64,000 bases of DNA from Coriobacteriia bacterium (lineage in GTDB: Bacteria; Actinomycetota; Coriobacteriia; WRKU01; WQUG01): positions 32,971-96,970 of the forward strand of contig WRBW01000001.1 of assembly GCA_009784345.1 (NCBI GenBank), written 5' to 3'. The stretch's first letter is position 1, and each line of letters starts with the position of its first letter. Position numbers and translations under genes: made by a program. A model generated the notes under the pieces. It was given only the letters and a program-made list of their open reading frames with translations, was not told where the DNA came from and ran no database searches. Shown here in pieces: positions 4,779 to 63,668 of this stretch.

Positions 4779-4783
4779 AAAAA

Positions 4784-9728: not shown

Positions 9729-9752
9729 GAAGTTAAGTGCGGGGTGACAAAG
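9729..9752 (+). repeat. intergenic repeat, half copy (right arm GTGCGGGGTGACAA)
   Basis: GAAGTTAAGTGCGGGGTGACAAAGG. Confidence 0.6.
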
Positions 9753-9757
9753 GTTAG

Positions 9758-10576: not shown

Positions 10577-10605
10577 AGTTGCCTGGCTTTCTGGCGGAGC
10601 TGGAA

Positions 10606-10664
10606 GGTCAAGGGCGAGACCCCGCATCAAGTGCGGGGTGACAAGGTCAAGTGCGGGGTGACAA
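10606..10664 (+). repeat. intergenic palindromic repeat, copy 4 (full copy plus an extra right arm)
   Basis: GGTCAAGGGCGAGACCCCGCATCAAGTGCGGGGTGACAAGGTCAAGTGCGGGGTGACAAAA. Confidence 0.85.
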
Positions 10665-10671
10665 AAATGGC

Positions 10672-12015: not shown

Positions 12016-12022
12016 TGGCGGT

Positions 12023-12089
12023 TAAGGTCAAGTTCAAGGGCGAGACCCCAAGATCCTTCGACTACGCTCAGGAAGTGCGGGGTGACAAT
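12023..12089 (+). repeat. intergenic palindromic repeat, copy 5, with a ~24-bp mini-element inserted into the hairpin loop
   Basis: GGTCAAGTTCAAGGGCGAGACCCC[AAGATCCTTCGACTACGCTCAGGAA]GTGCGGGGTGACAA. The inserted module also occurs at 8946-9004. Confidence 0.75.
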
Positions 12090-13928
12090 CTAAGGTGACT
12101 CGTGGTAGGTTGGGGCGGCTTCGATACTACCATCCGCAAGCCCCACTTCAAGTTGTTCGCGCATTTTGTACTTCATGATTTTTCCGCTGGTGGTCAGAGG
12201 AAATTCGTCAACAAAGAGGACGTATTTTGGTGCTTTGAAGCGCGCCATCTGCTCATAGCAGGCCTCTTTGACATCGACCTCGTCGAGTTGCGCGCCCGGC
12301 TTCAAAATGATGAAAGCTGCGGGTAGCTCCCCATATTTGCCGTCAGGCGCTGCGACGACCTGAACGTCTTGAACTTCAGGAAGCGTATAGAGGAATTCTT
12401 CAATTTCACGCGGATAGATGTTTTCGCCCCCGCGGATAATCATGTCCTTGATGCGCCCGGTGACTCGGTAGTAGCCTTTGTCGTCAACGGTGCCCAGGTC
12501 ACCTGAATGCAGAAAGCCATCTGCATCTATCGCCTCGACCGTGGCTGCGGGCATCTTATAGTAGCCCTTCATGACCTGGTAGCCTCGACAACACAGTTCG
12601 CCTACCTGGTTTGGACCGCACTCCTCCCCCGTTTCGGGGTCAATGACCCGCACGTCAGCGTGTGGCATGGCCTTGCCGACCGTTTCGGCGCGCACCTCTG
12701 GCGGGTCGTCGGTGGTCGTCATCGTGAAGACGGGGCTGGTTTCGGTGAGCCCGTAGGCTATGGTGATTTCGCTGCAGTGCATGTCGGTCATGACCTGCTT
12801 CATGGTTTCGACGGGGCAGGGTGAGCCTGCCATGATGCCCGTGCGCAGGCTGGTCAGGTCGAATTTGGCAAAGTCTGGATGGTTCATGACGGCGATGAAC
12901 ATGGTTGGTACGCCGTAGAGGGCGGTTGCGCGCTCTTTTTCGATGGCTGAGAGGGTCAGGAAGGGGTTAAATTCTTCGAGCAGGACGTGGGTTGCGCCGT
13001 GGGTCAGTACGGCCATGACGCCCAAAACGCAGCCAAAGCAGTGGAAGAGCGGGACGGGTAGGCAGACGCGATCTGCAGTTGTTAATTGCTGACACTGGCC
13101 GATGTAGTAGCCGTTATTTAAGATATTGCGGTGCGAGAGCTGCACCCCTTTGGGAAAGCCAGTTGTGCCGCTGGTGTACTGCATCATGGCGACGTCATCT
13201 GGCTTGACGTCGTAGAAGGCGTCCATGACGGTGGCACCCGGGGTGTGCTGCCCGAGGATCAGCAGTTCTGGCATGCTGTAAAAGCCTTTGTGCTTTTCAG
13301 GACCCATGTATATCAGGTGCTTCAGATGGGGGAAGCGCTCTGATTTGAGAAAACCGCGCGGCATGGTTTGCGATTCCGGAACCAGATCGCGGATGGTCTT
13401 GACGTAGTCGACGTCACGGAAACTGTCGATGACGGCCAGTGCGTCGAGATCTGCCTGTTCTAGCACGTAGGCGAGCTCGTGAGCCTTGTAGGCGGAGTTC
13501 ATGGTGACCATGACGACACCGATTTTTGCTGCCGCAAACATGAAGGTTAGCCAATCAGGGACGTTGCGCGCCCATACGCCCAGGTGCATGCCACGTCGAA
13601 GCCCAATGGCAAGCATGCCTTTTGCTAGGGCGTTGACGCGATCGTCAAACTGCGCGTAGGACCAGCGCAGACCGCGGTCGGGCATGACCAGAAAGTCCTG
13701 GTCGGGGTTTTGGGCGACTTCCTTTTCGAGGAATTGACCAATCGTCAGGTCTGTGAAGGGGCCTGCGTAGCTGGCTTGTTGTTGGATGACTTCGGGGACC
13801 TCGTAGGCGTCGAGATTGTCCAGACCTGCGGCCTCAGAGGCGGCAAGGTGCAGAGCGACGTTTATGGGCAGGTCGGGGCGAAGCTCATAGGTCTTTGCCG
13901 TGGGATTCATATTGATGGGCGTGCTCAT
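12090..13928 (-). CDS. AMP-dependent acyl-CoA synthetase / fatty-acid--CoA ligase
   Basis: AMP-binding signature [20 protein letters not shown] plus motifs [14 protein letters not shown] and GDLG..D..GY; 612 aa. Confidence 0.8.
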
Positions 13929-13944
13929 GGACGTGCTCCTCTGG

Positions 13945-14075
13945 TTGAGGTCAAGGGCGCGGGCGACCGGGGACGGTCGCCCCTACAAAGGTCAAGGGCT
14001 CAATTCCAAATCAAGTTTGGAATAACAAACAGGGTCAAGGGCGAGACCCCGCATCAAGTGCGGGGTGACAAGTGT
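13945..14075 (+). repeat. compound intergenic repeat, copy 6 (three hairpins, ending in the canonical element)
   Basis: GGGCGACCggggaCGGTCGCCC, then TTCCAAAtcaagTTTGGAA, then GGTCAAGGGCGAGACCCCGCATCAAGTGCGGGGTGACAA. Two of the stems share the loop ATCAAGT. Confidence 0.75.
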
Positions 14076-22085: not shown

Positions 22086-22162
22086 TGGTGGACCCGGGCT
22101 GACTCGAACAGCCGACCTCACGGTTATCAGCCGTGCGCTCTAACCAACTGAGCTACGGGTCC
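22086..22162 (-). tRNA. tRNA-Ile (anticodon GAT), CCA encoded
   Basis: Reverse complement GGACCCGTAGCTCAGTTGGTTAGAGCGCACGGCTGATAACCGTGAGGTCGGCTGTTCGAGTCAGCCCGGGTCCACCA. Anticodon loop CTGATAA. Confidence 0.9.
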
Positions 22163-22258
22163 GTTTGTTTTTCAAGCCTTAATACTCTATATGAAAACGA
22201 GCTGTAATGCAAGTATCATTCTTTCAGGTTTGGACGTACTCCCCCGCATTTATGCTAG

Positions 22259-24658
22259 CTAGTATTTGATGAGGCGAATCCAGATAAGCCAAATCACAAA
22301 GCTGATGGCGGTGATGGCAGCAAAGACGGGCAGGGTTGCTGCGGTCATGGTGCTTGCTAGTCCGACGTGGGGGCCGATGAAGTAGAGGCCGAGGAAGTAG
22401 CCGCCGAGGGTGAGGATGAGAATCGTCAGGTTGTGCAGATTGAGCGGCCAGCAGGCGCGCAGCACGTTGTAGAAGGTGATGATGCCGAGGCAGCAATACA
22501 TGAGGGTGATTGAGTCGATTTGGCTCCAGCCTTGTGCCTGTCCGTAGAAGTGTACAAAGACGAAACTAGCTGCAATCAGTACGGCATTCGGAAGGGAGCG
22601 CATGAGAGCTGTTTTGAGGAATTCTTTTTGCACGGGTGCGCGGTCCTTGCGGAAGGAGAAGTAGAAGGTGGGCCAGCCGATGGTTTGGTCGGCGAGGGTT
22701 ACTTGGATTGCCACGAAGGGAAAGAGGAAGAGGTTTCCTGCCAGCATGCTGACGGAGCTTGTCAGTACGATGAAGAGCGAATAGATAGTTTTGATGAAAA
22801 AGATGGACGCGCTGCGCAACATGTTGTTGACGACACGGCGAGCCTCGTAGAGGATTTCTGGGACGTCTGCAAAGTCAGACTTTAGCAAGACGAGGTTTGC
22901 GATTTGTTTGGTTGCGGCGTCGCCGGTGGCCATGGCGATTGAAAGGTTTGCTTCACGCATGGCTAGGATGTCGTTGACGCCGTCTCCGGTCATACCCACG
23001 GTATGCCCGCGCTGCCGCAGAGTCGAGACGATGAGCTTCTTTTGCTGGGGAGAAACACGGCCAAAAATCGCTGTTTCGTCGAGGACTGCAAGGAGCTGGT
23101 CATCTGAAAGGGTTGATGCATCGACGTAGCGGTCGTGCTGATCAAAGCCTGCCCGCTGCGCGATGATTGACACGGTCTTTGGGTTGTCACCCGAGATGAT
23201 TTTGAGGCTGACACCCTGTTCGCGCAGGTAGCCCAAGGTCTGGGGCGCACTTTCACGGATGGGGTCATCGAGCATGATGACGGCAAGGGGCGTCAGATCT
23301 GTGAGGGTCTCATCATCGATGCTGGGTAGCTGGTCACGGGTTCCGAGCAGGAGGACGCGGTAGCCTGCAAGCTGCATATCAGTGATGGCTGCAGGCAGGG
23401 GTTCATCGCGTGGTAGCAGCATCTCTGGTGCGCCGAGGACGAGCGTTGTGCCATGAGATGTGGCGAGCTGTGTTGCGAGTGGCGAAAAGTCGATGGCGCC
23501 CCACTTGCGATGGGACGAAAAGGGCACGGCAGGCAGCTGATGCTGGCTAGCCTCGACAGGATAGGCATCGCGCAGAGCGGTCATTGTCGAGTTCATGTCA
23601 GTAGCTGCTGCCAGGTAGGTGCGCAGGTCAGACTCCGCCTGCTGTTTTGCCTTTTCAGAAGATGTTGCAAGGATGCGCCCTTCGCTTATCTCGAGCGGCT
23701 GAATAGATGCCACGCGTATGACGCCTTCGGTGATGGTTCCGGTTTTGTCGAGGCAGAGGGTGTCGAGGTGCGCCATGGTTTCGATGGAGTACATTTCCTG
23801 GACCAGTACCTGGCGGCGGCCGAGCTTGACGACTCCGGTGACGAGGGTGACGGCGACCAGTACCACCATGCCGCGCGGGATCATGCCCAGCAGGCCGGCG
23901 GTGGTTGCGAGCACGGCCGTTTGGTAGTCAACGTGGGCGAGCACGAGGGCTTGAATCAGCAAGATGACGCCCAGGGGGAGTGCTATCCAGCTGACGAACT
24001 TCATGACGGTGCCCAGGGCCTTCATGAGGCCTGATTCGATGGGGCGGTATTGCTTTGCTTCTGCGGTGAGTTTCGTCGAATAGTTGTCTGCTCCGACGTG
24101 TTCGACGATGGCCATGACCTGGCCGCTTGCGATGAAGCTGCCTGAAAGCAGGTGGTCGTTGGTCTGTTTAATAAGGAGGTCAGATTCGCCGGTCAGTAGG
24201 GCCTCATTGACCTCTGCGTATCCGCTGATGACCTGTGAGTCTGTGGGGACTTGGTCGCCGGTGTTGAGCACGAGCAGGTCGTCGATGACGATGTCGCGAG
24301 GGGCGATTTTGTGCTGACTGCCGTCGCGGATGGCGATGACGGGGTCCGTGTTGAGCAGGGTGAGCTTGTCCACGATGCGGCGTGCACGGATTTCAACGAC
24401 GATACCGAGGGTGACGTTGAAGACCAGCAGCAGCATGAAGAGGGAGTTGATGATGGAGCCTACGGCAAGGACGGCGATGAAGATGATGAAGCTGGTGACG
24501 TTAAAGAGGGTGAAGGTGTTAGAGCGAATGATGTCCCAGTTAGTCTTTCCGGGATTTGCGACGTAGGAATTGTCGAGACCACGTTGCTGTCTCGACTGTA
24601 CTTCAGCGGTGGTGAGACCTGTTGAGCTGTTTGTGCTGTGCGTTTGCAAAGGCATCAT
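22259..24658 (-). CDS. cation-transporting P-type ATPase (P2/P3-type, Mg/Ca-like)
   Basis: DKTGTITEG phosphorylation motif, GDGVNDILAM, 10 TM. Start set at MMPLQTHS...; the first 42 codons of the ORF-track frame are probably not translated. Confidence 0.8.
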   Translation of the reverse strand: MMPLQTHSTNSSTGLTTAEVQSRQQRGLDNSYVANPGKTNWDIIRSNTFTLFNVTSFIIFIAVLAVGSIINSLFMLLLVFNVTLGIVVEIRARRIVDKLTLLNTDPVIAIRDGSQHKIAPRDIVIDDLLVLNTGDQVPTDSQVISGYAEVNEALLTGESDLLIKQTNDHLLSGSFIASGQVMAIVEHVGADNYSTKLTAEAKQYRPIESGLMKALGTVMKFVSWIALPLGVILLIQALVLAHVDYQTAVLATTAGLLGMIPRGMVVLVAVTLVTGVVKLGRRQVLVQEMYSIETMAHLDTLCLDKTGTITEGVIRVASIQPLEISEGRILATSSEKAKQQAESDLRTYLAAATDMNSTMTALRDAYPVEASQHQLPAVPFSSHRKWGAIDFSPLATQLATSHGTTLVLGAPEMLLPRDEPLPAAITDMQLAGYRVLLLGTRDQLPSIDDETLTDLTPLAVIMLDDPIRESAPQTLGYLREQGVSLKIISGDNPKTVSIIAQRAGFDQHDRYVDASTLSDDQLLAVLDETAIFGRVSPQQKKLIVSTLRQRGHTVGMTGDGVNDILAMREANLSIAMATGDAATKQIANLVLLKSDFADVPEILYEARRVVNNMLRSASIFFIKTIYSLFIVLTSSVSMLAGNLFLFPFVAIQVTLADQTIGWPTFYFSFRKDRAPVQKEFLKTALMRSLPNAVLIAASFVFVHFYGQAQGWSQIDSITLMYCCLGIITFYNVLRACWPLNLHNLTILILTLGGYFLGLYFIGPHVGLASTMTAATLPVFAAITAISFVIWLIWIRLIKY

Positions 24659-24766
24659 AGATGCTTGAAATTGTAACAAAGCGCGGTGTGGTGGCTGGTG
24701 AGCTTTGCCATTTGGTTGTTTTAAAAGGTTTCTGGAGACAGCTGGCAAATGGTCTTGAGGTGCGTG

Positions 24767-24828
24767 AAAAAGCCCTGTTGTCAAAGACGTCGCGTAGTAA
24801 CTACGTAAGTTTTTGACAACAGGGCTTT
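24767..24828 (-). terminator. rho-independent terminator of tRNA-Ala (15-bp perfect stem)
   Basis: AAAAGCCCTGTTGTCAAA..26 nt..TTTGACAACAGGGCTTT, 23 nt after the tRNA 3' end. On the minus strand the stem is followed by TTTTT. The inner loop holds a second palindrome, CGTAGTAACTACG. Confidence 0.75.
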
Positions 24829-24850
24829 AGTACGTGCATCAAGGCCATTT

Positions 24851-24926
24851 TGGTGGAGGCTAGGGGGATCGAACCCCTGACCTCTGGCTTGCAAAGCCAG
24901 CGCTCTCCCAGCTGAGCTAAGCCCCC
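24851..24926 (-). tRNA. tRNA-Ala (anticodon TGC), CCA encoded
   Basis: Reverse complement GGGGGCTTAGCTCAGCTGGGAGAGCGCTGGCTTTGCAAGCCAGAGGTCAGGGGTTCGATCCCCCTAGCCTCCACCA. The G3:U70 identity pair is present. Confidence 0.9.
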
Positions 24927-54226: not shown

Positions 54227-57200
54227 ATGGATATTCAGGATGTGGTTTCTTCTAGTACTTCTGCCCGGATTATCACAGGTCTCGGGATTCCAGCGCTGAC
54301 AATTATTATCAGCCTTCTCATAATCTTTAGTGTGGCAAACTTTTCTGCCAATGCCGTGGGTGAAGCAAACATTACGGCCATCGAGGCAACACCGACAGCA
54401 TCTCACATGGCGGCAGGATCAGCCGCCCTTGACCTCGTAGATGTGCCTGACCTTCTGGCTACTGCAGACCCAGCAGCCTCAGCCCCAGACCCAGCAGCCT
54501 CAACAGACGACGGCGACCTCGCTCTCATCACCCCCGGCGAGGGCCCGCGGGTACGCCAGGCAACAAGAGGAATCGATGCGCCTTTAGGTGGAAACACCCT
54601 GCAGGCAGGTGACACAACGCGCCTGGTTGTCATGGCAGTAGTTGGCGACCCGGCTGAAGGCTACTATGAGTCCTATCCGGCCAGCCATGCAGGCGTCAAC
54701 AGTGCTCTTACTGACCTGCACCAAAGCGGCGACCCCAGCAGCAGCTACGTCATGTATGTGGGTGCAAACATCACCGGAATTCCTGTTGCACGCTATGCCA
54801 ACACAGAGGCACCCGGAACCTTTTCAGGTCTTGCTGGGCGCATCCACACTTTGGTGATTACCGGCAATGCGCAAGACCCCATAAACACCGCAGCAGCACT
54901 GAATGCTGCTCCTACAGAACGTCGTCAGTTTACCCGCGGTGATGGGGACAGCTGGTTTGGCTCTCACATCATCTTGCGCAATGTGCAGCACAGATTGGGC
55001 AGTAATGTCTACATGAAGGGTCATAACCTGACCCTGGGCGGAAGCTCCTGGCAAACAGCTGCTACTAATTACTTTGGCGGTAGCAACACAGGCAACATCA
55101 CCTCGCGCGAGGGAACGACGACGCTCACGGTCTATTCAACCGGCACGGGTGATTCGAACTTTTTTGGCGGTATGAATGCGGGAACCTTCACCGGTAATAC
55201 CGCAATTGTCATCAGGGGTTCAAGCGGCAACGCCATCATGACGCGTGGCGGCGGAAGCGGTACCGATGGTGCACGCGCCCATGTCATGGGCAACGTATCA
55301 ACGACAATCACGGGTCTCGATACACGCACCTGGGGACTTTCAAGCTTCCTGGGTGGTGTCCACTACGGCAACATTAGCGGGCAGATCACGAACCATATTT
55401 CGGGACCTGGACGTTTTGTGTGGACTGGAGGATCTACCAGCGGTGACGTAGGAGGGGGCCACTATGTCGGCGGATCCCGCACCGGCAGCGTAGGTGGCGC
55501 AGATACCATTGCAGCTCCCATCAAAACTGATGGTCTTGATATGGACTACTCCCCCCTTTTAGACAACACAAATTACGCCATCTTCAACGATATCGACACG
55601 TCGGCCTATACCAACGGACGCAAATACTTCATTGGTGCCAACACAGCTGCAGGCACCATCACAGGCAATGTTATTAATGTAGTAAAGGCCGGCACGGTGA
55701 ACGCAGGTGGGCTTACGGGTCTCCAGGCTCTGGGCGGCATTGGCACAACTATAAACAATACCTGGCCCAGCGCCCTGTCTGGCTCGACCAGCACCGGACG
55801 CGTCACCGGTATTGAGCGTGCGCGTGAACTTGCTGAATCGCAGGCAGGATTTCGTGTCTATGGTAACGCGGTGACCGTTGTGCGCGCGGGTCATATTACG
55901 GCCGGTGGCGATATTAATTATTATCGCGGTGCAGGCTATGGTGGCTATATCGAAGGCGACATTTATTCTGCCATCGGGACAGAAGGCCTGGTCTATCAGA
56001 CGACCCTCAACACCTATCAATACCGCGTCAACCCGAATGCCGGCATATCCCAGGGTTACTCGACCACCTTTGATCTGGTGGGTGGTGGCGGTCGCGAAGG
56101 CTGGAATGACAGCACCTTCATCGCAGGCGATACTCATATCGTCCTGAAGGAAGTGCGCGCCCGCTGGACTTACGGCTCAAGCTTTGGGGGTGTGCTACAG
56201 GGTGACAGCCTGATAGAGCTCCACGCGGGCGTTGTTGACACCCTCGAAGGCGCCGGGTATTTAACCTATGTGCACGTGGGCGACAGCCGCGCAGAGGTTC
56301 ACGGTGGTCAGGTCGAGTGGTTTCTTTCTGGCGGCGGCTGGAACGACCACTGGCATGACGGCAATGTCAGCGTCGAGGTCTTTGACGGCCCGCCCCCAAA
56401 CACGCCCATCATTAACGCATCTATGGGCGGAACTTATGGCAATTCGACAGCTCACTATACCAGCGGGGATTCGACCATGGTGATTCGCGGCGGCGACTTT
56501 AGCGGAGTGCCCAGGAGGGGACCTTCCGGGTTTTCCAGTGGGCCAACCAATGCCGGCTACATCTTTGGCAATGCATCTATGACCCTTGATTTACGGGGCA
56601 ACCAGCACGGCTTTAAAACCTCTGCGGCTAATGCCGTGTCTGCGGGCAGATCCACCGTAGCAAGTGGAGACAGCTACCTGGGCTTTAACCACAATAATAC
56701 GATTGAGCTCAACATCTTCACTGATGACGATGGCGGCGACCTTCTAAGCCGCATGAACATCTACGGGGATGCATCTGCAAGTGGCGTACATGACCGGACG
56801 CGCTCTGGCCACATCACCATGAACATCAATGCACCGGGCTCGACCATCGGTAACCTCTATGCGACCAGCTACGTCAACCTAACGGGAACGGCCACGAGTC
56901 GCATGCTGTGGCGCAATGTTGAAATGAACCTGGTATCTGCAGCAAATATCGAAGGACTATCTGCGGGCAACGGATTTACCGACACAGGGGCAGGTGCTGA
57001 TACCAATACGCTGCGCAGTGATGTGGCGCAGCGCAGCATTGCTGCGGGCAGACAGGCCATCATCAAGGTGGGCCCCCACACTGACGACCCCGCCCACCCC
57101 CTGGGCGAGCGCGAAACGACGGTGCCAGAAAATGGACGCCCTCGCGTCATTAATGTCGCCGGCGTCGGCATCACCGGATTTACGCGGATGGATATCACGC

Positions 57201-59017
57201 GGCGCCTGTTGACAGCAACGGATGGTACGGTTAAAAATGGCGGAGCGCGTGCTAGCCTGGCCACCTTTGCCGAGTACAACAACCACGGTTCGGTCTACCT
57301 GCACGCGGGTCAGGGCGTCGATGCATCAGGCTTTGGCATAAGGCGTGCGGGGCAGTCACTGATTGTCGCCGGAGACCTGCATGTGGTGGGTGAAGGTACG
57401 GCCTATATTCAGTCGCAGGGTGCGCTCAATCAGGCGGTGTTTAACGATGTTCACATAGCTGATACGCTGACCTGGCTGCGTGTGGGTGACACCTCTGCCG
57501 CGAATTTCAGCCCGCTGACCAGCTGGTTTGGTGCAGCTCGAGGCTGGCATGTCTTTACCTTGAATCCGCAGCGTGAGCGTGCGCTGAAAGTCAGCCCCTT
57601 TAATTTGGAAGGCATCGACGAGTCAAATGGTCACACCTATCTGGGCGACAGCGTGGTACCTTCCAGTGGTGCCAGCGGCTTTGCCGTCTGTATTCCCGGT
57701 GCGAAATATCGCTGGCAGGTTACCGCTGGCGAGGGCATGGTCACCCATGATGTGGACATTACGGTAAGCACGGGCGAAACACCCTCGAGCCCTGTGCACG
57801 GTATTGGCTCGGTTGGCAAGGGTGTGCCATCGCAGTCAGGCATGATTGCCGTGCCCTCAGAGTTTGTTCCTGACCCGATGAACTATCCGACCTTTAGTTT
57901 TATCCCCCATGCCCCGCGCGGCGAATGGGTGGAGGGCGTCCAGATTCACCGTTCAGACTGCCTGCTGACAGACCCGCAGCACAGCTTGCGCTGCATCACT
58001 ATTCCTGAAGTTCCGCTGCCAGACTATCACCAGGACTATGTCGATGGCTTGCCCCCAGGCTGGGCCACCTGGACAGCGCAGGGCGATGATCGCTACTTTA
58101 GCTTTGACATTGCAGCTCAGTACACCCATGACTGCGAACTGCAGGCACGCAGCGTCATCATTACCGAGTCTGAAGCGGCAGCGATTGCAGATGCTGGCTG
58201 TATTACGGGCTATCAAGAGGCCATGGGACGCCCCTTCTTTAGGCATGACATTGACGACGCACTGCTTGCAGCAATTCGTCAACCACTGGCTGATGGCCTT
58301 TACTTAAGGTCACATCCCGTGACCTACAGCACGGGGCGCGCCGTAACAGGCGACGTCGCCTCAGCTGCACTCACGACGCTGACGGTTAAGGTCGTTGTGG
58401 TGCGCGATGGCAGCGTACTTTCAGAAGATCGCAGCTACGGCGTATGGGCAAAAGATGCCCGCATGACCTTAAGCATCGCACAGGAGATGCAGCGCGAGCG
58501 CTTAGATAGTCGCTACACCCATGCGATGGCCTTCACCTCGCAGGGAACAACAGATACCCCGACCCTTGCGGCAGGAGTGCTTGAAGACATCAGGTCAAGT
58601 ACGGCAGAACAGGTGCCGCGTGACGTGGTTGCCAGCTATTCGTTCCTGCCCGCAGACGCAGCAGGTTCCGGCACGGCAGATGGGCAGACCTTGGTGCCGG
58701 CGAGCATCGATGTCATCATCAGCATCATCCCGAACTGGCCCACCCCGACGGGTCTTCGCATGAGCAGTGTCAGGCTGGGCAGCCTGTTGCTGTTCCCCCT
58801 GGGGCTTGCCGTGCTGGGTGCCTGCGGCTACGCCGGTCACACCCGGCGCACGCTGGGGCAGCTGATGCCACCGCCATCGCAACAAGGCGAAATCCTTGAC
58901 GCAGGGCACGATAAGCCCAAGCCGCCGCCGTCACCATCGGCAGCAGCTACTGCAGAAGCAGCTGCAGTAGCGCCTGAACCGAAGCCATCAAGCCAGCACG
59001 TCATCTGGAAAATATAG
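54227..59017 (+). CDS. giant secreted Gly/Thr/Ser-rich beta-helix-like repeat surface protein (1596 aa)
   Basis: N-terminal signal/TM (ITGLGIPALTIIISLLIIFSVANFSANA). Dozens of GGxxxG/TGN-type repeats typical of a parallel beta-helix. C-terminal hydrophobic segment plus basic patch (LLLFPLGLAVLGACGYAGHTRR), then a Pro/Ala-rich tail. Confidence 0.7.
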   Translation: MDIQDVVSSSTSARIITGLGIPALTIIISLLIIFSVANFSANAVGEANITAIEATPTASHMAAGSAALDLVDVPDLLATADPAASAPDPAASTDDGDLALITPGEGPRVRQATRGIDAPLGGNTLQAGDTTRLVVMAVVGDPAEGYYESYPASHAGVNSALTDLHQSGDPSSSYVMYVGANITGIPVARYANTEAPGTFSGLAGRIHTLVITGNAQDPINTAAALNAAPTERRQFTRGDGDSWFGSHIILRNVQHRLGSNVYMKGHNLTLGGSSWQTAATNYFGGSNTGNITSREGTTTLTVYSTGTGDSNFFGGMNAGTFTGNTAIVIRGSSGNAIMTRGGGSGTDGARAHVMGNVSTTITGLDTRTWGLSSFLGGVHYGNISGQITNHISGPGRFVWTGGSTSGDVGGGHYVGGSRTGSVGGADTIAAPIKTDGLDMDYSPLLDNTNYAIFNDIDTSAYTNGRKYFIGANTAAGTITGNVINVVKAGTVNAGGLTGLQALGGIGTTINNTWPSALSGSTSTGRVTGIERARELAESQAGFRVYGNAVTVVRAGHITAGGDINYYRGAGYGGYIEGDIYSAIGTEGLVYQTTLNTYQYRVNPNAGISQGYSTTFDLVGGGGREGWNDSTFIAGDTHIVLKEVRARWTYGSSFGGVLQGDSLIELHAGVVDTLEGAGYLTYVHVGDSRAEVHGGQVEWFLSGGGWNDHWHDGNVSVEVFDGPPPNTPIINASMGGTYGNSTAHYTSGDSTMVIRGGDFSGVPRRGPSGFSSGPTNAGYIFGNASMTLDLRGNQHGFKTSAANAVSAGRSTVASGDSYLGFNHNNTIELNIFTDDDGGDLLSRMNIYGDASASGVHDRTRSGHITMNINAPGSTIGNLYATSYVNLTGTATSRMLWRNVEMNLVSAANIEGLSAGNGFTDTGAGADTNTLRSDVAQRSIAAGRQAIIKVGPHTDDPAHPLGERETTVPENGRPRVINVAGVGITGFTRMDITRRLLTATDGTVKNGGARASLATFAEYNNHGSVYLHAGQGVDASGFGIRRAGQSLIVAGDLHVVGEGTAYIQSQGALNQAVFNDVHIADTLTWLRVGDTSAANFSPLTSWFGAARGWHVFTLNPQRERALKVSPFNLEGIDESNGHTYLGDSVVPSSGASGFAVCIPGAKYRWQVTAGEGMVTHDVDITVSTGETPSSPVHGIGSVGKGVPSQSGMIAVPSEFVPDPMNYPTFSFIPHAPRGEWVEGVQIHRSDCLLTDPQHSLRCITIPEVPLPDYHQDYVDGLPPGWATWTAQGDDRYFSFDIAAQYTHDCELQARSVIITESEAAAIADAGCITGYQEAMGRPFFRHDIDDALLAAIRQPLADGLYLRSHPVTYSTGRAVTGDVASAALTTLTVKVVVVRDGSVLSEDRSYGVWAKDARMTLSIAQEMQRERLDSRYTHAMAFTSQGTTDTPTLAAGVLEDIRSSTAEQVPRDVVASYSFLPADAAGSGTADGQTLVPASIDVIISIIPNWPTPTGLRMSSVRLGSLLLFPLGLAVLGACGYAGHTRRTLGQLMPPPSQQGEILDAGHDKPKPPPSPSAAATAEAAAVAPEPKPSSQHVIWKI

Positions 59018-59181: not shown

Positions 59182-59275
59182 CTTTCCTCTACAGCCCCCG
59201 CGCCAGCATCCCGCTTCTGTCATGCCGTACTCCGACACGACATCTCGCCCTTGATCTTGTCCTGCCTTCTACGCA

Positions 59276-59557
59276 TCAGCGAAACTCGATGTGGAGCTTC
59301 TTGCCAAAGCCCATTGCTATTTGATTGAGCGTTCTGACATTGGGAATGCTTTGGCCCGTCTCAATGCGACTTATATTTGACTGCTTTATGCCACTTCTTT
59401 CAGCTAGCTCTTGTTGGGTAATACCCGTTTCGATGCGAGCTTCGATAATTGCATTCAGTGCTTGCATCTCTCCCTGAAGTGCGTCATATTCACTGCGTAT
59501 AGCTGGATTACACAGAAGCTCTTCCTTATGCAGTTCATAGTTAGTCATTCTTCTCAT
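59276..59557 (-). CDS. higA: HigA-type antitoxin (XRE-family HTH)
   Basis: HTH GITQQELAERSGIKQSNISRIETGQ. Start at ATG with GAGGTG 5 nt upstream. Overlaps the toxin gene. Confidence 0.7.
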   Translation of the reverse strand: MRRMTNYELHKEELLCNPAIRSEYDALQGEMQALNAIIEARIETGITQQELAERSGIKQSNISRIETGQSIPNVRTLNQIAMGFGKKLHIEFR

Positions 59558-59900
59558 TAACACACCTCGCTAAATAATCCTTCTTATATTTTTGAGCCAA
59601 AAGCAATTGTCGCTGTGGAACCTTGCTTTGCTTTTTGATAAAACCATTGGTTATTACACATTTTCTTCCCCGACAAAAGAAATACAAGATCCTAACCTGC
59701 CCATCTCGAGTTCTTGTTCTAAGCTCAAAGAGACCTTTTCCGATATGTTTTGATTCGGGCTCTCCAATCAGATTTCCATACTTTTCAAGTACGTCGATTA
59801 TCGCTAACACACTCGCTATTGCACCGTCGCTGAGACCCTCAATAAAATCTTTAGCAGGACATCTTCCGCTGGGCAATTGGTAATACTCAATTTGAAACAT
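59541..59900 (-). CDS. higB: HigB/RelE-ParE superfamily toxin
   Basis: 119 aa, ...KHIGKGLFELRTRTRDGQVRILYFFCRGRKCVITNGFIKK. The toxin-upstream, antitoxin-downstream order is typical of HigBA. Confidence 0.7.
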   Translation of the reverse strand: MFQIEYYQLPSGRCPAKDFIEGLSDGAIASVLAIIDVLEKYGNLIGEPESKHIGKGLFELRTRTRDGQVRILYFFCRGRKCVITNGFIKKQSKVPQRQLLLAQKYKKDYLARCVNEKND

Positions 59901-59989
59901 CCCGACCTCCTCTCACAATATTACTTTTTTGATATATTGTCAAGCCAAGTGCCGACTATTGATACCTTATCCAACGGACATTAAAGAGA

Positions 59990-60090
59990 GATTAACTCGA
60001 GATGAAAGAAAGCTGAAAGAAAGGTGAACACACTATGAAAGAAACATTAAAGAGAATTAACGCAAGATGAAAGAAACCTTAAAGCAGGTG
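59990..60090 (+). repeat. three degenerate tandem copies of ATGAAAGAAA(C)-NTTAAAG (about 33-bp period)
   Basis: gagATGAAAGAAAgctgaaag..ATGAAAGAAAcattaaagagaattaacgcaag ATGAAAGAAAccttaaagcaggtgg. The third copy opens a 45-codon ORF (MKETLKQVVECVHYCLSPR...). Confidence 0.6.
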
Positions 60091-60214
60091 GTTGAGTGCG
60101 TCCATTATTGCTTGTCACCCCGGCTCCTGAACCGTGGTCACGCCTGGCTGTCATCCCGTACTCCGACACGACATCTCGCCCTTGACCTATACACTACCAG
60201 ATAGATCTGCTAGG

Positions 60215-60256
60215 TTGACCATCTGTATAACAATTGTGTACACTATTGTTATACAG
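60215..60256 (+). promoter_or_regulatory. putative promoter (-35 TTGACC, -10 TACACT) with 12-bp perfect inverted-repeat operator for the Phd/YefM antitoxin gene
   Basis: CTGTATAACAAT tgtgtacact ATTGTTATACAG spans the -10 region. AAAGGAGC RBS, then the ATG at 60294. Confidence 0.55.
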
Positions 60257-60293
60257 ATAGCTCAAACACCCAAACTAGCCAAAGGAGCCTTTC

Positions 60294-60590
60294 ATGGTTT
60301 TCTACACAGTCCGCGAGCTGCGTAACAACACAAAAACGGTACAGCAGGCAATCAAAGGCGGCGGGGAAGTCGTCATTACCAACAACGGCAAACCCTGGGC
60401 ACTCATGCTCGATATTGCAGAAGACGACCTGTTCGAAGTGGTCCATGCAGTCAAGAGTGCCCGTATGGCGCGGGCGCTTGAAAAGATTAGAGAGGATGCT
60501 ATCGCAAACGGCACCGCGGATCTTTCCATACAAGAAATCGATGCAGAAATAGCGAGCTACAGAAATGGAAGGCACATTCAGGCGTTGTAG
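60294..60590 (+). CDS. Phd/YefM-family antitoxin (orphan; no intact toxin downstream)
   Basis: MVFYTVRELRNNTKTVQQAIKGGGEVVITNNGKPWALMLDIAEDD is a Phd/YefM signature. Only a 13-codon ORF follows. Confidence 0.7.
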   Translation: MVFYTVRELRNNTKTVQQAIKGGGEVVITNNGKPWALMLDIAEDDLFEVVHAVKSARMARALEKIREDAIANGTADLSIQEIDAEIASYRNGRHIQAL

Positions 60591-60759
60591 ATAGTTCCCA
60601 GCTCAGACACATTTGGTAGGGCAACACTAAAGATTTCCCCAAAGAGCCGCACATTATGACTCCAGCAGAATTCATCGACTCCATGCGCCTAGAATAAACA
60701 GCAGTGAATACCCCTGTGCCTACCGGCACAGGATCTAAAACAGTCGCTCCGCGAGCGTC

Positions 60760-60933
60760 TTAGTCATCTGGATACCTTTTAGGATCGTCGAAAAATTCCG
60801 CCATATCATCCCAGCCGAAAAGGCGACATATGAGCGACTGGATTTTCATCCCCACAGCAATCACGACCAGACTTAGACCAGCAAAGATGGCCACCCCAAC
60901 AAGTAGTGCTAACAGCTGTATTATCCCCTGCAC
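60760..60933 (-). CDS. small hydrophobic protein, 57 aa (peptide 1 of tandem array)
   Basis: GTG start with GGAGG 10 nt upstream; VQGIIQLLALLVGVAIFAGLSLVVIAVGMKIQSLICRLFGWDDMAEFFDDPKRYPDD; one TM plus an acidic tail. Confidence 0.35.
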   Translation of the reverse strand: MQGIIQLLALLVGVAIFAGLSLVVIAVGMKIQSLICRLFGWDDMAEFFDDPKRYPDD

Positions 60934-60982
60934 TTCACACCTGCCTCCCCGTCACCCCAGTCTCCGAGCCTCACACCCGCCC

Positions 60983-61153
60983 CTAGTATCGGTCCTTGTT
61001 CAGGTCTTTTTGGACTTCTTTCATCAGAGCGATGTTTCGAACCCCCGTCATATCTTGCCGCACCCGCCTCTTGGGCTTCTTCGGGGTCAGAGCTTCATGA
61101 ATCTCATTAAGAACAATAATTCCGGCCAACACAATGAAAATGGCAACTACCAC
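60983..61153 (-). CDS. small hydrophobic protein, 56 aa (peptide 2)
   Basis: GTG start with AGAGGGGG 9 nt upstream; VVVAIFIVLAGIIVLNEIHEALTPKKPKRRVRQDMTGVRNIALMKEVQKDLNKDRY; one TM plus a basic tail. Confidence 0.35.
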   Translation of the reverse strand: MVVAIFIVLAGIIVLNEIHEALTPKKPKRRVRQDMTGVRNIALMKEVQKDLNKDRY

Positions 61154-61313
61154 CTCAATCAACCCCCTCTTTCATCTGATTCAACAATTATGACACTGCG
61201 CCTTGCACAGCACGCCCAGCATCCCCCACTCCTTGTCACCCCAGCCTCGATCCGCAACATCGAGGGTGGTATTGTAGGAGCGAGAGTCCCAGCTTGTGCG
61301 GGGACTGTTAATC

Positions 61314-61418
61314 TTAGGGCCTCAGTGTGTAAAAGAACAGGAAAATGTGCTTAAGGATAATGAACGGAAACGCAATCATAAGCACCAAGCAACCGCCTTT
61401 ATCTTTGAAACGAGCCAT
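61314..61418 (-). CDS. small hydrophobic peptide, 34 aa (peptide 3)
   Basis: ATG with AAGGGGG 6 nt upstream; MARFKDKGGCLVLMIAFPFIILKHIFLFFYTLRP. Confidence 0.3.
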   Translation of the reverse strand: MARFKDKGGCLVLMIAFPFIILKHIFLFFYTLRP

Positions 61419-61581
61419 AATCTAACCCCCTTAGCCTTATCGTAGTTATGATTTACGAGATACATTTTCATCTTCCCACCGTCACTTCCTCCACCTCATA
61501 GATTCCTAGTTTTGGCATCTTGTTTGTCACCCCGCCTGTACGGGAATTACCGCGAGTCTACCCAGCGAGTTGCACCTTAAT

Positions 61582-61725
61582 CTAAGTAATCCCACTGTAA
61601 TCAATGAAGCGATCACTTCTATTCCCTGTAAACATCCACCATGCGGCACATACAAGAATCATGGGCGGGAAAACGAATCCATAGAACGCTACCCACATGA
61701 ACCTCTTGAAATAAATCCATCCCAT
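61582..61725 (-). CDS. small hydrophobic peptide, 47 aa (peptide 4)
   Basis: ATG with GAAGGGAG 5 nt upstream; MGWIYFKRFMWVAFYGFVFPPMILVCAAWWMFTGNRSDRFIDYSGIT. Confidence 0.35.
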   Translation of the reverse strand: MGWIYFKRFMWVAFYGFVFPPMILVCAAWWMFTGNRSDRFIDYSGIT

Positions 61726-62129
61726 AATCTTCTCCCTTCTTTATGCCAGCCTTCCCCAGCTGGCTCATCATCTGGCGGAGCACGTCCAGCATCCCCCACC
61801 CCTCGTCACAATAAGTCTCCCAAACACCTCAGACATACTAATTTCACAAATACCACACAAATGAACGCCCATCTCAATCGCACAAAAAAGAGCCCCACTC
61901 CCGCGAAACTCTCCATTTTCTTGCAACAGAATGACTTCCTTGCAGCGCTAACTTGAAAATATTTTTACGAAACTTGTAACTTTACTTTCAAGTTATCTTG
62001 GCGGAGTACGCCCAAACCTCCCATAGCTGTCCACTTCCTGAGCGAAAGCTGCAGCTGTAGACCAATTTGTATTTATATATGTTAGAATATGGTCATATGT
62101 TAGACATTAGAAAGTGAGGTTTAACCTTT

Positions 62130-62342
62130 ATGAAGGTATCTATTTCGGAATTAAAGACCAATCCTGGATATTATATCGACCTGTCGCAGAATCAAAGAAT
62201 CGCCATCACAAAGAACGGCAAGGTTGTTGCTAACATCATTTCTGCGATACCCTCAAAGCATGATTCGGCACGCAAACTGATTGGCTCACTACCTGCAAAC
62301 CTCGATTACGATGCGCTCAGAGAAGAGCGGATCGCACAATGA
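62130..62342 (+). CDS. vapB: Phd/YefM-type antitoxin of VapBC pair
   Basis: MKVSISELKTNPGYYIDLSQNQRIAITKNGKVVANII; 4-nt overlap with the downstream PIN gene. Confidence 0.7.
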   Translation: MKVSISELKTNPGYYIDLSQNQRIAITKNGKVVANIISAIPSKHDSARKLIGSLPANLDYDALREERIAQ

Positions 62343-62749
62343 AAAAAGTTTTACTCGACACCAATGTCATACTCGACGCAATGACCGCTCGAACAAACAA
62401 CCAGGCACCTGCCCGTATACTCGAACTGGCCGGCGAGGAAGCTTTCGAGGCCTGCGTTACTGCAAACAGCCTGACTGATATTTTGTATGTAACACAGCGG
62501 CATTATTCTCAGGCGCGAGCCCAAGAACTTTTGCCTTACCTGCTCAGCTTGTGCACCATTGTCAGCGTTACCGACAAGGACTGTTATACCGCCGCGTCAT
62601 GGGACTGGAATGACTTTGAAGATGCACTGCTCTGCGCTAGTGCTGCGCGCGAAAATGTCGACCTTATCATCACCAGCGACCAGGACTTTATCGCCCAAAA
62701 TGCACCAATCACCGCCATGACACCCCAGGACTTCCTCTCATTCTCCTAG
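62339..62749 (+). CDS. vapC: PIN-domain ribonuclease toxin VapC
   Basis: VLLDTNVILDA N-terminal PIN motif; conserved acidic residues (D..E..D..D); 136 aa. Confidence 0.8.
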   Translation: MKKVLLDTNVILDAMTARTNNQAPARILELAGEEAFEACVTANSLTDILYVTQRHYSQARAQELLPYLLSLCTIVSVTDKDCYTAASWDWNDFEDALLCASAARENVDLIITSDQDFIAQNAPITAMTPQDFLSFS

Positions 62750-62825
62750 CCTATCTCAGTACGCCCAAACCACCACACCACATCACCCACCCACTCACCC
62801 CTATTGAGCATCTTTACTCAAGACA

Positions 62826-62886
62826 CTGAGCAGATTTGTTCAGTGTATTGAACATTTTTGTTCACTATACTGAACAAATCTGCTCG
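62826..62886. repeat. 58-bp near-perfect palindrome at truncation point of ATPase pseudogene
   Basis: GAGCAGATTTGTTCAGTGTATTGAACA tttt TGTTCACTATACTGAACAAATCTGCTC: 27-bp arms with 2 mismatches. Confidence 0.8.
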
Positions 62887-63478
62887 TATAGACATCACAG
62901 ACTCAGAAAGTGGCCAAAACTGGATACAAGAGCAATGGCTTGCAGCGCGCATGCTCATTACAGAACAAAGCCCTTCTGCGATTCTAGTACTGGATGAAAT
63001 CCAAAGTGTTTCACAGTGGGCAACCATCTTAAAAATACTCTGGGATCAAGATGCTCGAACGGGAGTCGACCTCCGCGTAGTGGTGACGGGCTCTTCTGCG
63101 CTGCTGCTTCAGTCAGGCTTGTCAGAATCTCTCATGGGGCGATTTGAGATTATTCCCTCGACTCACCACAAACCCATCTTACAGACCCTGCAAAATATGG
63201 CCGACTCGCAGAAAGTGCCATCGGAGCTTATCTGCTGGGGCGCGGAAAGGTCGATGGCTTTGACCTGTACTGGTGGCGCGATGGAAACCTAGAGGTCGAC
63301 TTCGTCATTAAAAAAGGAGTCCATGCTATAGGCATTGAGGTAAAGTCTGGCAGCATGAAAAGCTACAAGGGCATAACAAAGTTTCGCGATAGCTTCCCTG
63401 ATGCAAAAGTTATCTTAGTCGGGGATAGCAACATTACCATTGAGGACTTTCTGCTGGGCAAAGTCCCCCTGTTCTAGA
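62858..63478 (+). pseudogene. N-terminally truncated, frameshifted AAA-family ATPase (AAA_14 + DUF4143 type)
   Basis: ILVLDEIQSVSQW...LRVVVTGSSALLLQSGLSESLMGRFEIIPS, then after a frameshift at about 63290 ...VDFVIKKGVHAIGIEVKSGSMKSYKGITKF...KVILVGDSNITIEDFLLGKVPLF. No Walker A region. Confidence 0.5.
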
Positions 63479-63668
63479 GCCAGCAAACATAAAGCGGCGG
63501 AGTACGCCCAGCATCCCCCACCCCTCGTCATTCTGAACTTGATTCAGAATCTCGCCCTTGACCTTCATTGCACCTGTGCCTAACGGCACAGGACCAGTAT
63601 CCGTTGCTTCGCTACGGGCAAACTGTCGCAGAACCGTCATTGAGGATCAAAGGCCGCAGTGACGGCAT

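What the first reader, a model, noticed from the sequence alone, without database searches (positions are those of the whole stretch)
60760..61830. Tandem array of four small hydrophobic peptide genes (34-57 aa) with strong SDs and a conserved upstream leader motif: candidate type I toxin-like or membrane-peptide family
None is in the ORF track because all are below the length cutoff. Each has an N-terminal TM helix and an excellent SD at 5-10 nt (GGAGG, AGAGGGGG, AAGGGGG, GAAGGGAG). At least two, peptides 2 and 4, carry the same motif, AGTGGGGGATGCTGG(A/G)CGTGCT, about 50-70 nt upstream of the start. A third copy of that motif lies at 63.50 kb. A repeated hairpin CCTGTGCC-TAMC-GGCACAGG (60713, 63573) follows the array. 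Tandem small membrane peptides with structured conserved leaders inside a TA-rich island are characteristic of type I toxin families or small bacteriocin-like or regulatory peptides. None matches a family I can name.
Basis: partly seen in the sequence, partly recalled or inferred. Interest (0 to 1): 0.65.

Follow-up and report, generated by a model that had tools for sequence, protein, structure and literature searches.

The report
Orphan small membrane-peptide genes between hairpin repeats
Three or four tiny membrane-peptide genes with no relatives anywhere probably do sit here, in an accessory island of an uncultured gut Coriobacteriia bacterium, but their supposed shared "leader" is one module of a repeat scattered through this genome, and nothing ties them to a known toxin family.

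Summary
The sequence observation holds. Four minus-strand ORFs (57, 56, 34 and 47 aa) each combine a strong Shine-Dalgarno site with a hydrophobic helix. They are the only four such ORFs in the 64 kb window (composition-matched shuffles: mean 0.06, 0 of 1000 reach 4).

- The "leader" motif and the CCTGTGCC hairpin are modules of a species-specific mosaic of hairpin repeats, similar in kind to REP/BIME elements.
- The same leader module lies next to HigB, two unrelated DUF1016 genes and a surface-protein gene. Only 2 of 11 copies precede the peptides.
- Its 12-nt core (GGAGYRCGYCCA) is hyper-abundant, even inside housekeeping genes.

The peptides are unrelated to each other. P1 and P2 have no homologue in billions of proteins. 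No peptide matches Pfam, NCBIfam, PHROGs or PADLOC. The region has no DNA match in phages or plasmids. The peptides are absent from the syntenic site in the three nearest relatives, and every recovered copy is 100% identical, so conservation cannot be tested.

Best reading: lineage-specific small membrane-protein genes in a toxin-antitoxin and defence island, separated by repeat hairpins. A type I toxin role is possible but unsupported. Interest is modest.

The parts
60760..60933 (-). P1: 57-aa ORF (GTG start) with an N-terminal TM helix and an acidic C-terminal tail
   Evidence: SD GGGGAGG, dG -11.9; KD17 2.82. Codon score in the top 3.7% of spurious ORFs. Called by gene finders. Only exact copies exist among 5.8 billion protein clusters.
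60983..61153 (-). P2: 56-aa ORF (GTG start; alternative TTG at 61162 gives 59 aa) with an N-terminal TM helix and a Lys/Arg-rich tail
   Evidence: SD AGAGGGGG, dG -12.2 for GTG against -5.2 for TTG. Only itself found among 1.84 billion representative proteins.
61314..61418 (-). P3: 34-aa ORF with a basic N-terminus followed by a TM helix
   Evidence: SD AAGGGGG, dG -11.4; KD17 2.40. Singleton cluster. Too short for the homologue search.
61582..61725 (-). P4: 47-aa aromatic-rich hydrophobic ORF. This is the least certain of the four.
   Evidence: SD GAAGGGAG, dG -8.7; KD17 2.01. Codon score only in the top 12%. Never called by a pipeline and no homologue found.
61619..61792 (-). Rival 57-aa ORF overlapping P4 out of frame. 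Its SD and ATG lie inside repeat module M2, so it is probably a gene-caller artefact.
   Evidence: Called in all the contigs. The same ATG in other M2 copies opens ORFs of 10, 13, 26 and 45 codons with no conserved frame.
61806..61916 (-). Possible fifth hydrophobic ORF (36 aa from ATG, 25 aa from GTG at 61883). The evidence is weak.
   Evidence: Listed. The 25-aa form has SD dG -7.7 and KD 2.28. Not followed up.
61766..61810 (-). It forms the hairpin GGTGGGG...CTCCGCC.
   Evidence: Profile match 35.8 bits; fold.
61196..61242 (-).
   Evidence: 27.9 bits. The 3' half is mutated (CTGTGCA) and the hairpin is lost.
63487..63668 (-). Full composite repeat M3-M1-M2 downstream of the DUF1016 gene.
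   Evidence: It folds as a string of local hairpins, z -4.6. It recurs at 93% and 86% identity 1.4 and 2.7 kb beyond the window end.
60700..60762 (-). Two hairpins after the P1 stop: CGCTC-GCG-GAGCG and the M3-type CCTGTGCC-GGTA-GGCACAGG. No clean T run follows.
   Evidence: Fold -25.7 kcal/mol, z -2.8. 87.5% identical to L118 5091-5138.
61523..61533 (-). Word GGGGTGACAAA (the 3' end of module M1) between P4 and P3. A related GGGGTGAC lies at 60951-60958, immediately upstream of the P1 SD.
61993..62039 (-). A further M2 copy in the divergent spacer between P4 and the Phd-PIN operon. Another lies at 62747-62790.
   Evidence: 24.9 and 22.7 bits.
59980..60188 (-). Composite M1-M2-M4 repeat upstream of higB
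   Evidence: 72-77% identity to four other copies.
59276..59900 (-). HigB-like (Gp49) and HTH antitoxin pair
   Evidence: Pfam PF05973 at 2e-19 and PF01381 at 3e-14.
60294..60590 (+). Orphan Phd/YefM-type antitoxin, convergent with the peptide array
   Evidence: PF02604 at 6e-7.
62130..62749 (+). Phd/YefM antitoxin plus PIN toxin operon, divergent from P4

Best explanation
The locus holds three to four (possibly five) independent, lineage-specific genes for single-pass small membrane proteins. They sit in a low-GC accessory island of an uncultured Coriobacteriia bacterium, among toxin-antitoxin and defence genes.

Shown:
- Each ORF has its own strong ribosome-binding site and a hydrophobic helix.
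- The ORFs share no sequence with each other or with any searched protein.
- The spacers between them are filled with fragments of a species-specific mosaic of hairpin repeats. The modules are M1 (GGTCAAGGGCGAGA, a covarying stem, then TGACRAG), M2 (...TGGRCGYRCTCCGCC), M3 (which contains CCTGTGCC-NNNN-GGCACAGG) and M4 (AT-rich).
- These repeats also occur between housekeeping genes and next to unrelated accessory genes.

Inferred:
- The peptides are translated and insert into the membrane.
- The hairpin modules act as REP/BIME elements do, as intercistronic RNA or DNA hairpins that end or stabilise transcripts and promote rearrangement. They are not a peptide-specific regulatory leader.
- The island was assembled piecemeal at a variable chromosomal site.

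What the peptides do in the membrane (toxic pore-former, regulator or other) is not determined.
For: Real-gene signals:
- The SD-plus-TM conjunction is unique to these four ORFs in 64 kb and absent from 1000 composition-matched shuffles.
- Codon scores are positive, while the long antisense 174-aa ORF scores as non-coding.
- For P1, P3 and P4 the SD-led start is the first start codon of the open frame.
- Gene finders call P1-P3.

The repeats are generic:
- M1 copies lie at 4034, 7917, 10606, 12032 and 13949-14072, between MgtE-like, glycine-betaine ABC transporter, MgsA and AMP-binding genes.
- 8 of the 9 stem pairs of M1 show compensatory changes.
- The composites fold as chains of local hairpins, with z -4.6 and -5.2.
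- M2-M4 is 85-88% identical upstream of two DUF1016 genes that are only 27.6% identical as proteins.
- The M2 core is 17-fold present against 0.05 expected.

Island context:
- GC is 0.48 here against 0.53-0.61 in the flanking 48-60 kb.
- Neighbours are HigBA, Phd, Phd-PIN, an AAA_14 fragment, DUF1016 and a methylase/AIPR/DUF4420/Z1 cluster.
- In the three nearest relatives (ATPase 71-75% identical) the ATPase is followed by a MacB-type ABC operon. One relative has an intact AAA_14-DUF4143 gene in between, and another has a DUF7601 surface-protein gene and a GerE regulator gene. None has this window's toxin-antitoxin genes, peptides or repeats.

The organism name comes from NCBI protein titles.
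Against: - There is no evidence of conservation. P1 and P2 match only themselves in 5.8 billion clusters and 1.84 billion representatives. P4 matches nothing.
- All metagenome copies are 100% identical, so purifying selection cannot be tested.
- No sigma-70-like promoter lies on the minus strand.
- P4 competes with an overlapping ORF that has a better codon score.
- The G+T-rich strand favours both SD-like strings and hydrophobic codons. The shuffle control covers composition but not repeat structure.
- The P1 SD directly abuts a repeat word.
- NCBI's annotation of the MAG appears not to include the peptides: no NCBI source is listed for them.
Confidence: 0.6

Rival explanations
1. The peptides form an array of type I toxin-antitoxin modules. 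Each would be a membrane-damaging toxin whose mRNA is held in check by an antisense or divergent small RNA, and the repeat-containing 5' regions would serve as regulatory leaders.
For: - All four peptides meet the protein-feature criteria of Fozo et al. 2010 (PMC2887945): under 70 aa and at least 10 of 15 hydrophobic residues. P1, P2 and P4 also have polar or charged C-terminal tails.
- They lie in a toxin-antitoxin and defence island.
- They are separated from their neighbours by spacers of 50-400 nt.
Against: - The tandem units are not paralogous, unlike ldr, ibs or zor loci.
- No Pfam or NCBIfam type I toxin family matches at E <= 1.
- No Rfam antitoxin RNA was found.
- No promoter-like or terminator-like site lies on the + strand of 60.6-62.1 kb.
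- The SD sites are unpaired in the predicted leader folds.
- The shared 'leader' is a generic repeat.
Confidence: 0.12
2. The ORFs are non-functional. They would be accidental or decaying open frames (at best proto-genes) in a 1.5-kb stretch of repeat-littered, pseudogene-bearing island DNA, and their SD-like strings and hydrophobicity would be by-products of G+T-rich repeat-derived sequence.
For: - No searched peptide (P1, P2, P4) has a homologue anywhere.
- Nearby genes are decayed: an AAA_14 fragment and an orphan Phd.
- The minus strand is 30% G and 28% T.
- Gene finders also call ORFs that lie wholly inside repeats, for example the 62-aa ORF at L001 12576-12764 and the rival 57-aa ORF.
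- P3 and P4 have only marginal codon scores.
Against: - Four SD-plus-TM ORFs are observed against 0.058 expected in composition-matched shuffles.
- Three of the four SD sites lie outside repeat modules.
- No remnant of any Pfam domain appears in any of the six frames, so this is not a recognisable broken gene.
Confidence: 0.23
3. The region is a cassette array. The small ORFs and toxin-antitoxin pairs would be mobile cassettes, and the composite repeats would be the recombination sites of an integron-like or novel site-specific system.
For: - Unrelated small genes and toxin-antitoxin pairs are each bounded by the same composite element, mostly co-oriented with it.
- The element is far better conserved (85-88%) than the genes it precedes (28%).
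- The site is variable among relatives.
Against: - No attC-like R''/R' core pair exists on either strand.
- The composites are chains of short hairpins, not one long imperfect hairpin.
- No integrase or other recombinase was found in the ORFs scanned or in the called genes of the extension. About 20 ORFs at 26.5-47.3 kb and the one at 49.1-50.1 kb were not scanned.
- M1 also sits between housekeeping genes, and the M2 core lies inside genes.
Confidence: 0.05

Closest known systems
Chromosomal type I toxin-antitoxin loci (ldr/rdl, ibs/sib, zorO/orzO, fst, tisB, hok/sok)
   Same: The peptides are under 60 aa with one TM helix and polar or charged tails. They are arranged in tandem within one intergenic stretch and are commonly missed by annotation (PMC2887945).
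   Different: - Known tandem loci are paralogous repeats whose similarity extends beyond the ORF. Here the four ORFs are mutually unrelated.
- No family match was found.
- No antitoxin RNA is identifiable.
- The shared upstream motif is a genome-wide repeat rather than part of the module.
REP / BIME / REPIN elements of Proteobacteria
   Same: - Short hairpins with conserved flanks and covarying stems.
- Mostly extragenic and highly iterated.
- Clustered in mosaic tandem combinations between co-directional genes.
- Occasional inverted doublets, for example 47367/47402.
(definitions in PMC3116915 and PMC3337134, abstracts seen.)
   Different: - The sequence is unrelated and there is no GTAG head.
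- The host is an actinomycetotal Coriobacteriia.
- No RAYT gene could be looked for.
- The M2 core also occurs inside housekeeping coding regions, which is unusual for REPs.
Integron cassette arrays / CALINs
   Same: Small orphan genes and toxin-antitoxin pairs are interleaved with a recurring structured element at a variable chromosomal site.
   Different: No attC architecture, no IntI, and the repeats are not confined to the array.
Orphan small membrane proteins of bacteria (unannotated sORFs, for example the E. coli single-TM small proteins; from my own knowledge)
   Same: Size, single TM helix, strong SD, absence from annotation, narrow phylogenetic range.
   Different: Four unrelated ones are packed within 1 kb of an accessory island, and there is no expression evidence.

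Membership tests
Type I toxin-antitoxin system | Toxin under about 70 aa with a predicted transmembrane segment | tested here: met
   34-57 aa. 11-14 hydrophobic residues in the best 15-residue window. KD17 2.0-2.8. The criterion is from PMC2887945.
Type I toxin-antitoxin system | Sequence membership in a described toxin family (Hok/Gef, Ldr, Fst, TisB, Ibs, ShoB, TxpA/BsrG and others) | tested here: not met
   No Pfam, NCBIfam, PHROGs or PADLOC match beyond noise at E <= 1. T1TAdb itself was not available.
Type I toxin-antitoxin system | Tandem copies are paralogues, with similarity extending beyond the ORF | tested here: not met
   No significant pairwise peptide similarity. The only DNA similarity between the units is the 31-nt M2 module.
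Type I toxin-antitoxin system | Cis- or trans-encoded antisense RNA antitoxin | not testable with these tools
   No expression data are available. The consensus scans found no + strand promoter or terminator in 60.6-62.1 kb, and Rfam found nothing. These scans are weak evidence for an actinomycetotal host.
Type I toxin-antitoxin system | Toxicity on overexpression | not testable with these tools
   Requires an experiment.
REP/BIME-like interspersed hairpin repeats (for the 'leader' and hairpin) | Short imperfect palindromes whose stem is kept by compensatory change | tested here: met
   M1: 9 pairs, 8 with both-sides changes across 10 copies. The composites fold as chains of hairpins, z -4.6 and -5.2.
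REP/BIME-like interspersed hairpin repeats (for the 'leader' and hairpin) | Many copies, dispersed and extragenic, including between housekeeping genes | tested here: met
   At least 14 M1 copies and 11 M2 copies in about 80 kb. M1 lies between annotated core genes. However, the M2 core also occurs inside genes.
REP/BIME-like interspersed hairpin repeats (for the 'leader' and hairpin) | A cognate RAYT (Y1 transposase) in the genome | not testable with these tools
   The genome is not held. The species was not found in the genome collection by the repeat pattern.
Integron cassette array / CALIN | attC sites with complementary R'' (RYYYAAC) and R' (GTTRRRY) cores 50-140 nt apart | tested here: not met
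   Zero candidates on either strand of 58-72.7 kb. This was a simple consensus test, not the IntegronFinder covariance model.
Integron cassette array / CALIN | Tyrosine recombinase IntI adjacent to the array | tested here: not met
   None among the ORFs scanned (0.7-26.4 kb, 47.5-49.2 kb and the 59-63 kb island) or the called genes from the ATPase (51 kb) to 8.7 kb beyond the window end. About 20 ORFs at 26.5-47.3 kb and the one at 49.1-50.1 kb were not scanned.

The most novel reading that the evidence does not exclude
The four or five unrelated peptides could be a battery of membrane-active toxins, either of type I or of abortive-infection type, in a defence island of Coriobacteriia. To my knowledge no type I toxin-antitoxin family has been characterised in that class. 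In this reading the species-specific hairpin repeat modules would be co-opted as the RNA-level control or processing elements of the toxin messages.
Probability: 0.1. Interest if true: 0.55.

Novelty: new member of a known kind. Interest (0 to 1): 0.3.

Why it matters
If the peptides are expressed, they add four unannotated, lineage-restricted small membrane proteins to a poorly known gut lineage. They would also show how such genes gather in toxin-antitoxin and defence islands.

The more general lesson is a caution. A motif shared upstream of two small ORFs can be a genome-wide repeat rather than a regulatory leader.

The repeat system itself may be worth a genome-wide look in its own right. 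It has covarying hairpin modules and a 12-nt core that is about 300-fold over-represented and tolerated inside housekeeping genes.

Tried and rejected
- **Homologue searches.** P1 matched only itself among 5.8 billion clusters. P2 matched only itself among 1.84 billion representatives. P4 had no candidate. P3 is too short for the tool and is a singleton cluster.
- **Family libraries.** Pfam, NCBIfam, PHROGs and PADLOC gave nothing beyond noise. Six-frame stop-to-stop fragments of 60560-62140 against Pfam showed no domain remnant.
- **Other collections.** P1 and P2 have no relatives in viral contigs. A distant DNA search of the locus against plasmids and phages found no match.
- **Rfam.** Gathering and E-value modes gave only tRNAs and chance miRNA-like palindromes.
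- **Strain variation for dN/dS.** All seven contigs with the locus are 100% identical.
- **Genome-collection scan with the M1 pattern.** 112 scattered single chance hits and no genome with the repeat family.
- **Metagenome scan with the exact leader motif.** Three loci, one of them an unrelated GC-rich coding match.
- **Integron reading.** Rejected: no attC cores and no integrase.
- **M2 as a coding start (MLD[AV]LR...).** Rejected because the frames downstream of its ATG are not conserved.
- **M2 as SD plus start codon.** Rejected because the base after CCAT varies.
Full report
**What is in the sequence**

On the minus strand between 60.76 and 61.73 kb lie four small ORFs:
- P1: 60760-60933, 57 aa, GTG start.
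- P2: 60983-61153, 56 aa from GTG.
- P3: 61314-61418, 34 aa.
- P4: 61582-61725, 47 aa.

Their duplex energies with a generic anti-SD are -11.9, -12.2, -11.4 and -8.7 kcal/mol. That is as strong as or stronger than every long ORF of the window scored. For P2 the GTG start is clearly favoured over the TTG (-12.2 against -5.2). Each peptide has one strongly hydrophobic segment, with 17-residue Kyte-Doolittle maxima of 2.0-2.8 and 11-14 hydrophobic residues in the best 15-residue window.

**Is it more than chance?**

Yes.
- Among 1192 start/ORF combinations of 30-60 aa on both strands of the window, exactly four combine SD <= -8 kcal/mol with KD >= 1.8. They are these four, within 1 kb on one strand.
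- This strand is G+T-rich (30% G, 28% T), which favours both SD-like strings and hydrophobic codons. I therefore shuffled 60600-62100 while preserving dinucleotides. The mean count was 0.058, and 0 of 1000 shuffles reached 4.
- A codon-usage log-odds score trained on 24 long ORFs is positive for all four. P1 and P2 fall in the top 2-4% of 294 demonstrably spurious small ORFs, and P3 and P4 in the top 8-12%. The 174-aa ORF antisense to P1-P3 scores as non-coding.

One weakness concerns P4. No pipeline on record called it. All of them called an overlapping out-of-frame 57-aa ORF (61619-61792), whose SD and ATG lie inside the repeat motif. The same ATG in other copies of the motif opens frames of 10, 13, 26 or 45 codons with nothing conserved. 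I therefore regard the 57-aa call as the likelier artefact, but not confidently.

**The 'leader' and the hairpin are repeat modules**

Reading the neighbourhood and the 8.7 kb beyond the window end (locus L001) shows a mosaic repeat with four recurring modules:
- **M1** is GGTCAAGGGCGAGA, then a 7-9 bp stem whose sequence varies, then TGACRAG. Its loop is often ATCAAGT.
- **M4** is an AT-rich tail containing TTAATTCTCTTTAAT.

M1 copies also lie at 4034, 7917, 10606, 12032 and 13949-14072. There they sit between ordinary housekeeping genes: an MgtE-like protein, a glycine-betaine ABC transporter, MgsA and an AMP-binding enzyme. In an alignment of ten M1 copies, 8 of the 9 stem pairs show compensatory changes on both sides. 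Full composites fold as chains of five to seven local hairpins, with z -4.6 and -5.2.

A sequence profile of M2 built from 11 copies finds them as follows:
- Six in the window, all between 60.08 and 63.53 kb.
- One more in L001.
- Four on another contig of the same organism, L118.
- None in 54 kb from the three nearest relatives.

Only two of the eleven precede P2 and P4, at 40-55 nt. The others lie in unrelated contexts:
- 180 nt upstream of higB.
- About 150 nt upstream of two DUF1016 genes.
- 160 nt upstream of a 219-aa ORF.
- Directly after the stop codon of a 325-aa surface-protein gene.
- In places where no co-oriented gene follows.

The two DUF1016 proteins are only 27.6% identical, yet their upstream M2-M4 modules are 85-88% identical. 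The module is therefore an element in its own right and not part of a duplicated gene.

That condition is met. Two further points weigh against a leader role:
- The P2 copy has lost the 3' half that forms the M2 hairpin.
- The predicted leader folds leave the SD sites unpaired, and they are not unusually stable for P1-P3.

**Are the peptides related to anything?**

No relative was found for any of them.
- P1 matches only itself among 5.8 billion clusters.
- P2 matches only itself among 1.84 billion representatives, read exhaustively.
- P4 has no candidate.
- P3 is a singleton cluster and too short for the search tool.
- Pfam (which holds the main type I toxin families), NCBIfam, PHROGs and PADLOC give nothing beyond noise.
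- No reading frame of 60.56-62.14 kb carries a remnant of any Pfam domain.
- P1 and P2 have no relatives in viral contigs, and the 1.1-kb locus has no DNA match in the plasmid or phage collections. Rfam shows nothing in the island.
- The four peptides are not similar to each other. At the DNA level the four units share only the 31-nt M2 module.
- Every contig that carries the locus, from four samples, is 100% identical, so selection on the ORFs cannot be measured.

**Context**

NCBI titles of the flanking proteins name the source as an uncultured Coriobacteriia MAG. The peptide stretch lies in a lower-GC segment, 0.48 against 0.53-0.61 in the flanking 48-60 kb. That segment carries the following genes:
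- HigB/HigA.
- An orphan Phd antitoxin.
- A Phd-PIN pair.
- A fragmented AAA_14 gene.
- DUF1016.
- Further on, a DNA methylase with AIPR, DUF4420 and Z1 proteins.

In the three closest relatives I could find (P-type ATPase 71-75% identical), the ATPase is followed by a MacB-type ABC operon. In one the operon follows within 0.1 kb. Another has an intact AAA_14-DUF4143 gene in between. A third has a DUF7601 surface-protein gene and a GerE regulator gene in between. None has this window's toxin-antitoxin genes, the peptides or the repeats. The site is thus a variable hotspot, and the peptides are lineage-specific cargo.

**How it most likely works**

- Shown: four SD-led hydrophobic ORFs, generic structured repeats between them, and an accessory-island setting.
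- Inferred: the ORFs are translated into single-pass membrane peptides. The hairpin modules act as REP/BIME-type elements do, as transcript-ending or transcript-stabilising hairpins and as substrates for rearrangement. They are not a dedicated leader.

My confidence:
- About 0.9 that the motif and the hairpin are generic repeat modules.
- About 0.65-0.7 that at least P1-P3 are real genes.
- About 0.6 for the combined statement.

A type I toxin role remains possible, because the protein-level features of Fozo et al. 2010 are met. It fails the tests I could run: paralogous tandem copies, family membership, and antisense signals. I put it near 0.12.

Two other readings remain:
- Accidental or decaying ORFs, at about 0.23. 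The absence of homologues, the nearby pseudogenes and the gene-finder calls inside repeats favour it. The shuffle statistics and the SD sites outside repeats argue against it.
- An integron-like cassette reading, at about 0.05. There are no attC cores and no integrase in the ORFs scanned, and the repeats are not confined to the array.

**Comparison with known systems**

The locus resembles chromosomal type I loci in peptide size and shape only. The repeats resemble REP/BIME/REPIN elements in architecture and distribution (PMC3116915 and PMC3337134, abstracts seen). They are unrelated to those elements in sequence, they occur in an actinomycetotal lineage, and the cognate-transposase criterion could not be tested.

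The honest classification is new orphan members of the broad class of small bacterial membrane proteins, set among a new REP-like repeat family.

**Verdict**

Interest is 0.3.

The side observation on the hyper-abundant 12-mer may deserve its own look (see the items noticed in passing).

Noticed in passing
Whole window plus L001; for example 4407, 6669, 14742, 17950, 20210(-), 22231(-), 47367/47402, 50505, 52237, 61777, 62003, 63499: The 12-mer GGAGYRCGYCCA is the core of module M2 (fuller form GGNGGAGTGCGTCCAT).
- It occurs 17 times in 72.7 kb against 0.05 expected under an order-3 Markov model.
- About half the copies are intergenic, some as inverted pairs.
- Other copies lie inside housekeeping genes: EndoIII, MurB, FTHF ligase, and a P-type ATPase, where it sits in an indel-rich variable loop.
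- There are no copies in 54 kb from sister species.

It could be a DNA-uptake-sequence-like word or a second REP-like family. Its nature is unknown.
   Followed up: partly
M1 copies at 4034-14072 (+ strand) and 59256-63563 (- strand); L001 12600-13920 (-): The orientation of the M1 repeat switches with the sign of the GC skew. The skew is positive up to about 24 kb and negative beyond. This hints at a replication-related polarity, or simply at the G-richness of the repeat itself.
   Followed up: no
59980-60085; L001 12425-12545; L118 1810-1914, 5210-5311, 5905-6017: The AT-rich module M4 is built of two ~45-nt internal repeats rich in TTCTTTCA and TTAATYTC. It sits directly upstream of higB and of two DUF1016 genes that are only 28% identical to each other. 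It could be a portable promoter or operator region.
   Followed up: partly
62858-63477 (+): The AAA_14 ATPase gene is broken into fragments of 144 aa and 40 aa. An intact 396-aa AAA_14-DUF4143 gene sits right after the ATPase in a sister species (L121 13054-14244).
   Followed up: partly
62826-62888 and 60210-60274: Long perfect inverted repeats lie upstream of the AAA_14 fragment and of the orphan Phd antitoxin gene. They are probable operator sites. Rfam picks them up only as chance miRNA-like hairpins.
   Followed up: no
54227-59017 (+): A 1596-aa protein with no Pfam hit on record has an N-terminal signal/TM segment and a C-terminal PTPTG-plus-hydrophobic tail that looks like a sortase-type anchor. 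It occupies the variable slot after the ATPase. A relative carries a DUF7601 surface protein there instead.
   Followed up: no
L001 14264-20411 (6.6-12.7 kb beyond the window end): A cluster of DNA methylase, AIPR, DUF4420 and Z1 genes, which looks like a restriction or abortive-infection defence cluster, adjoins the toxin-antitoxin island.
   Followed up: no
22086-24926 (-): tRNA-Ala(TGC) and tRNA-Ile(GAT) usually sit in an rRNA spacer. Here they flank an 841-aa P-type ATPase gene, and there is no rRNA in the window.
   Followed up: no
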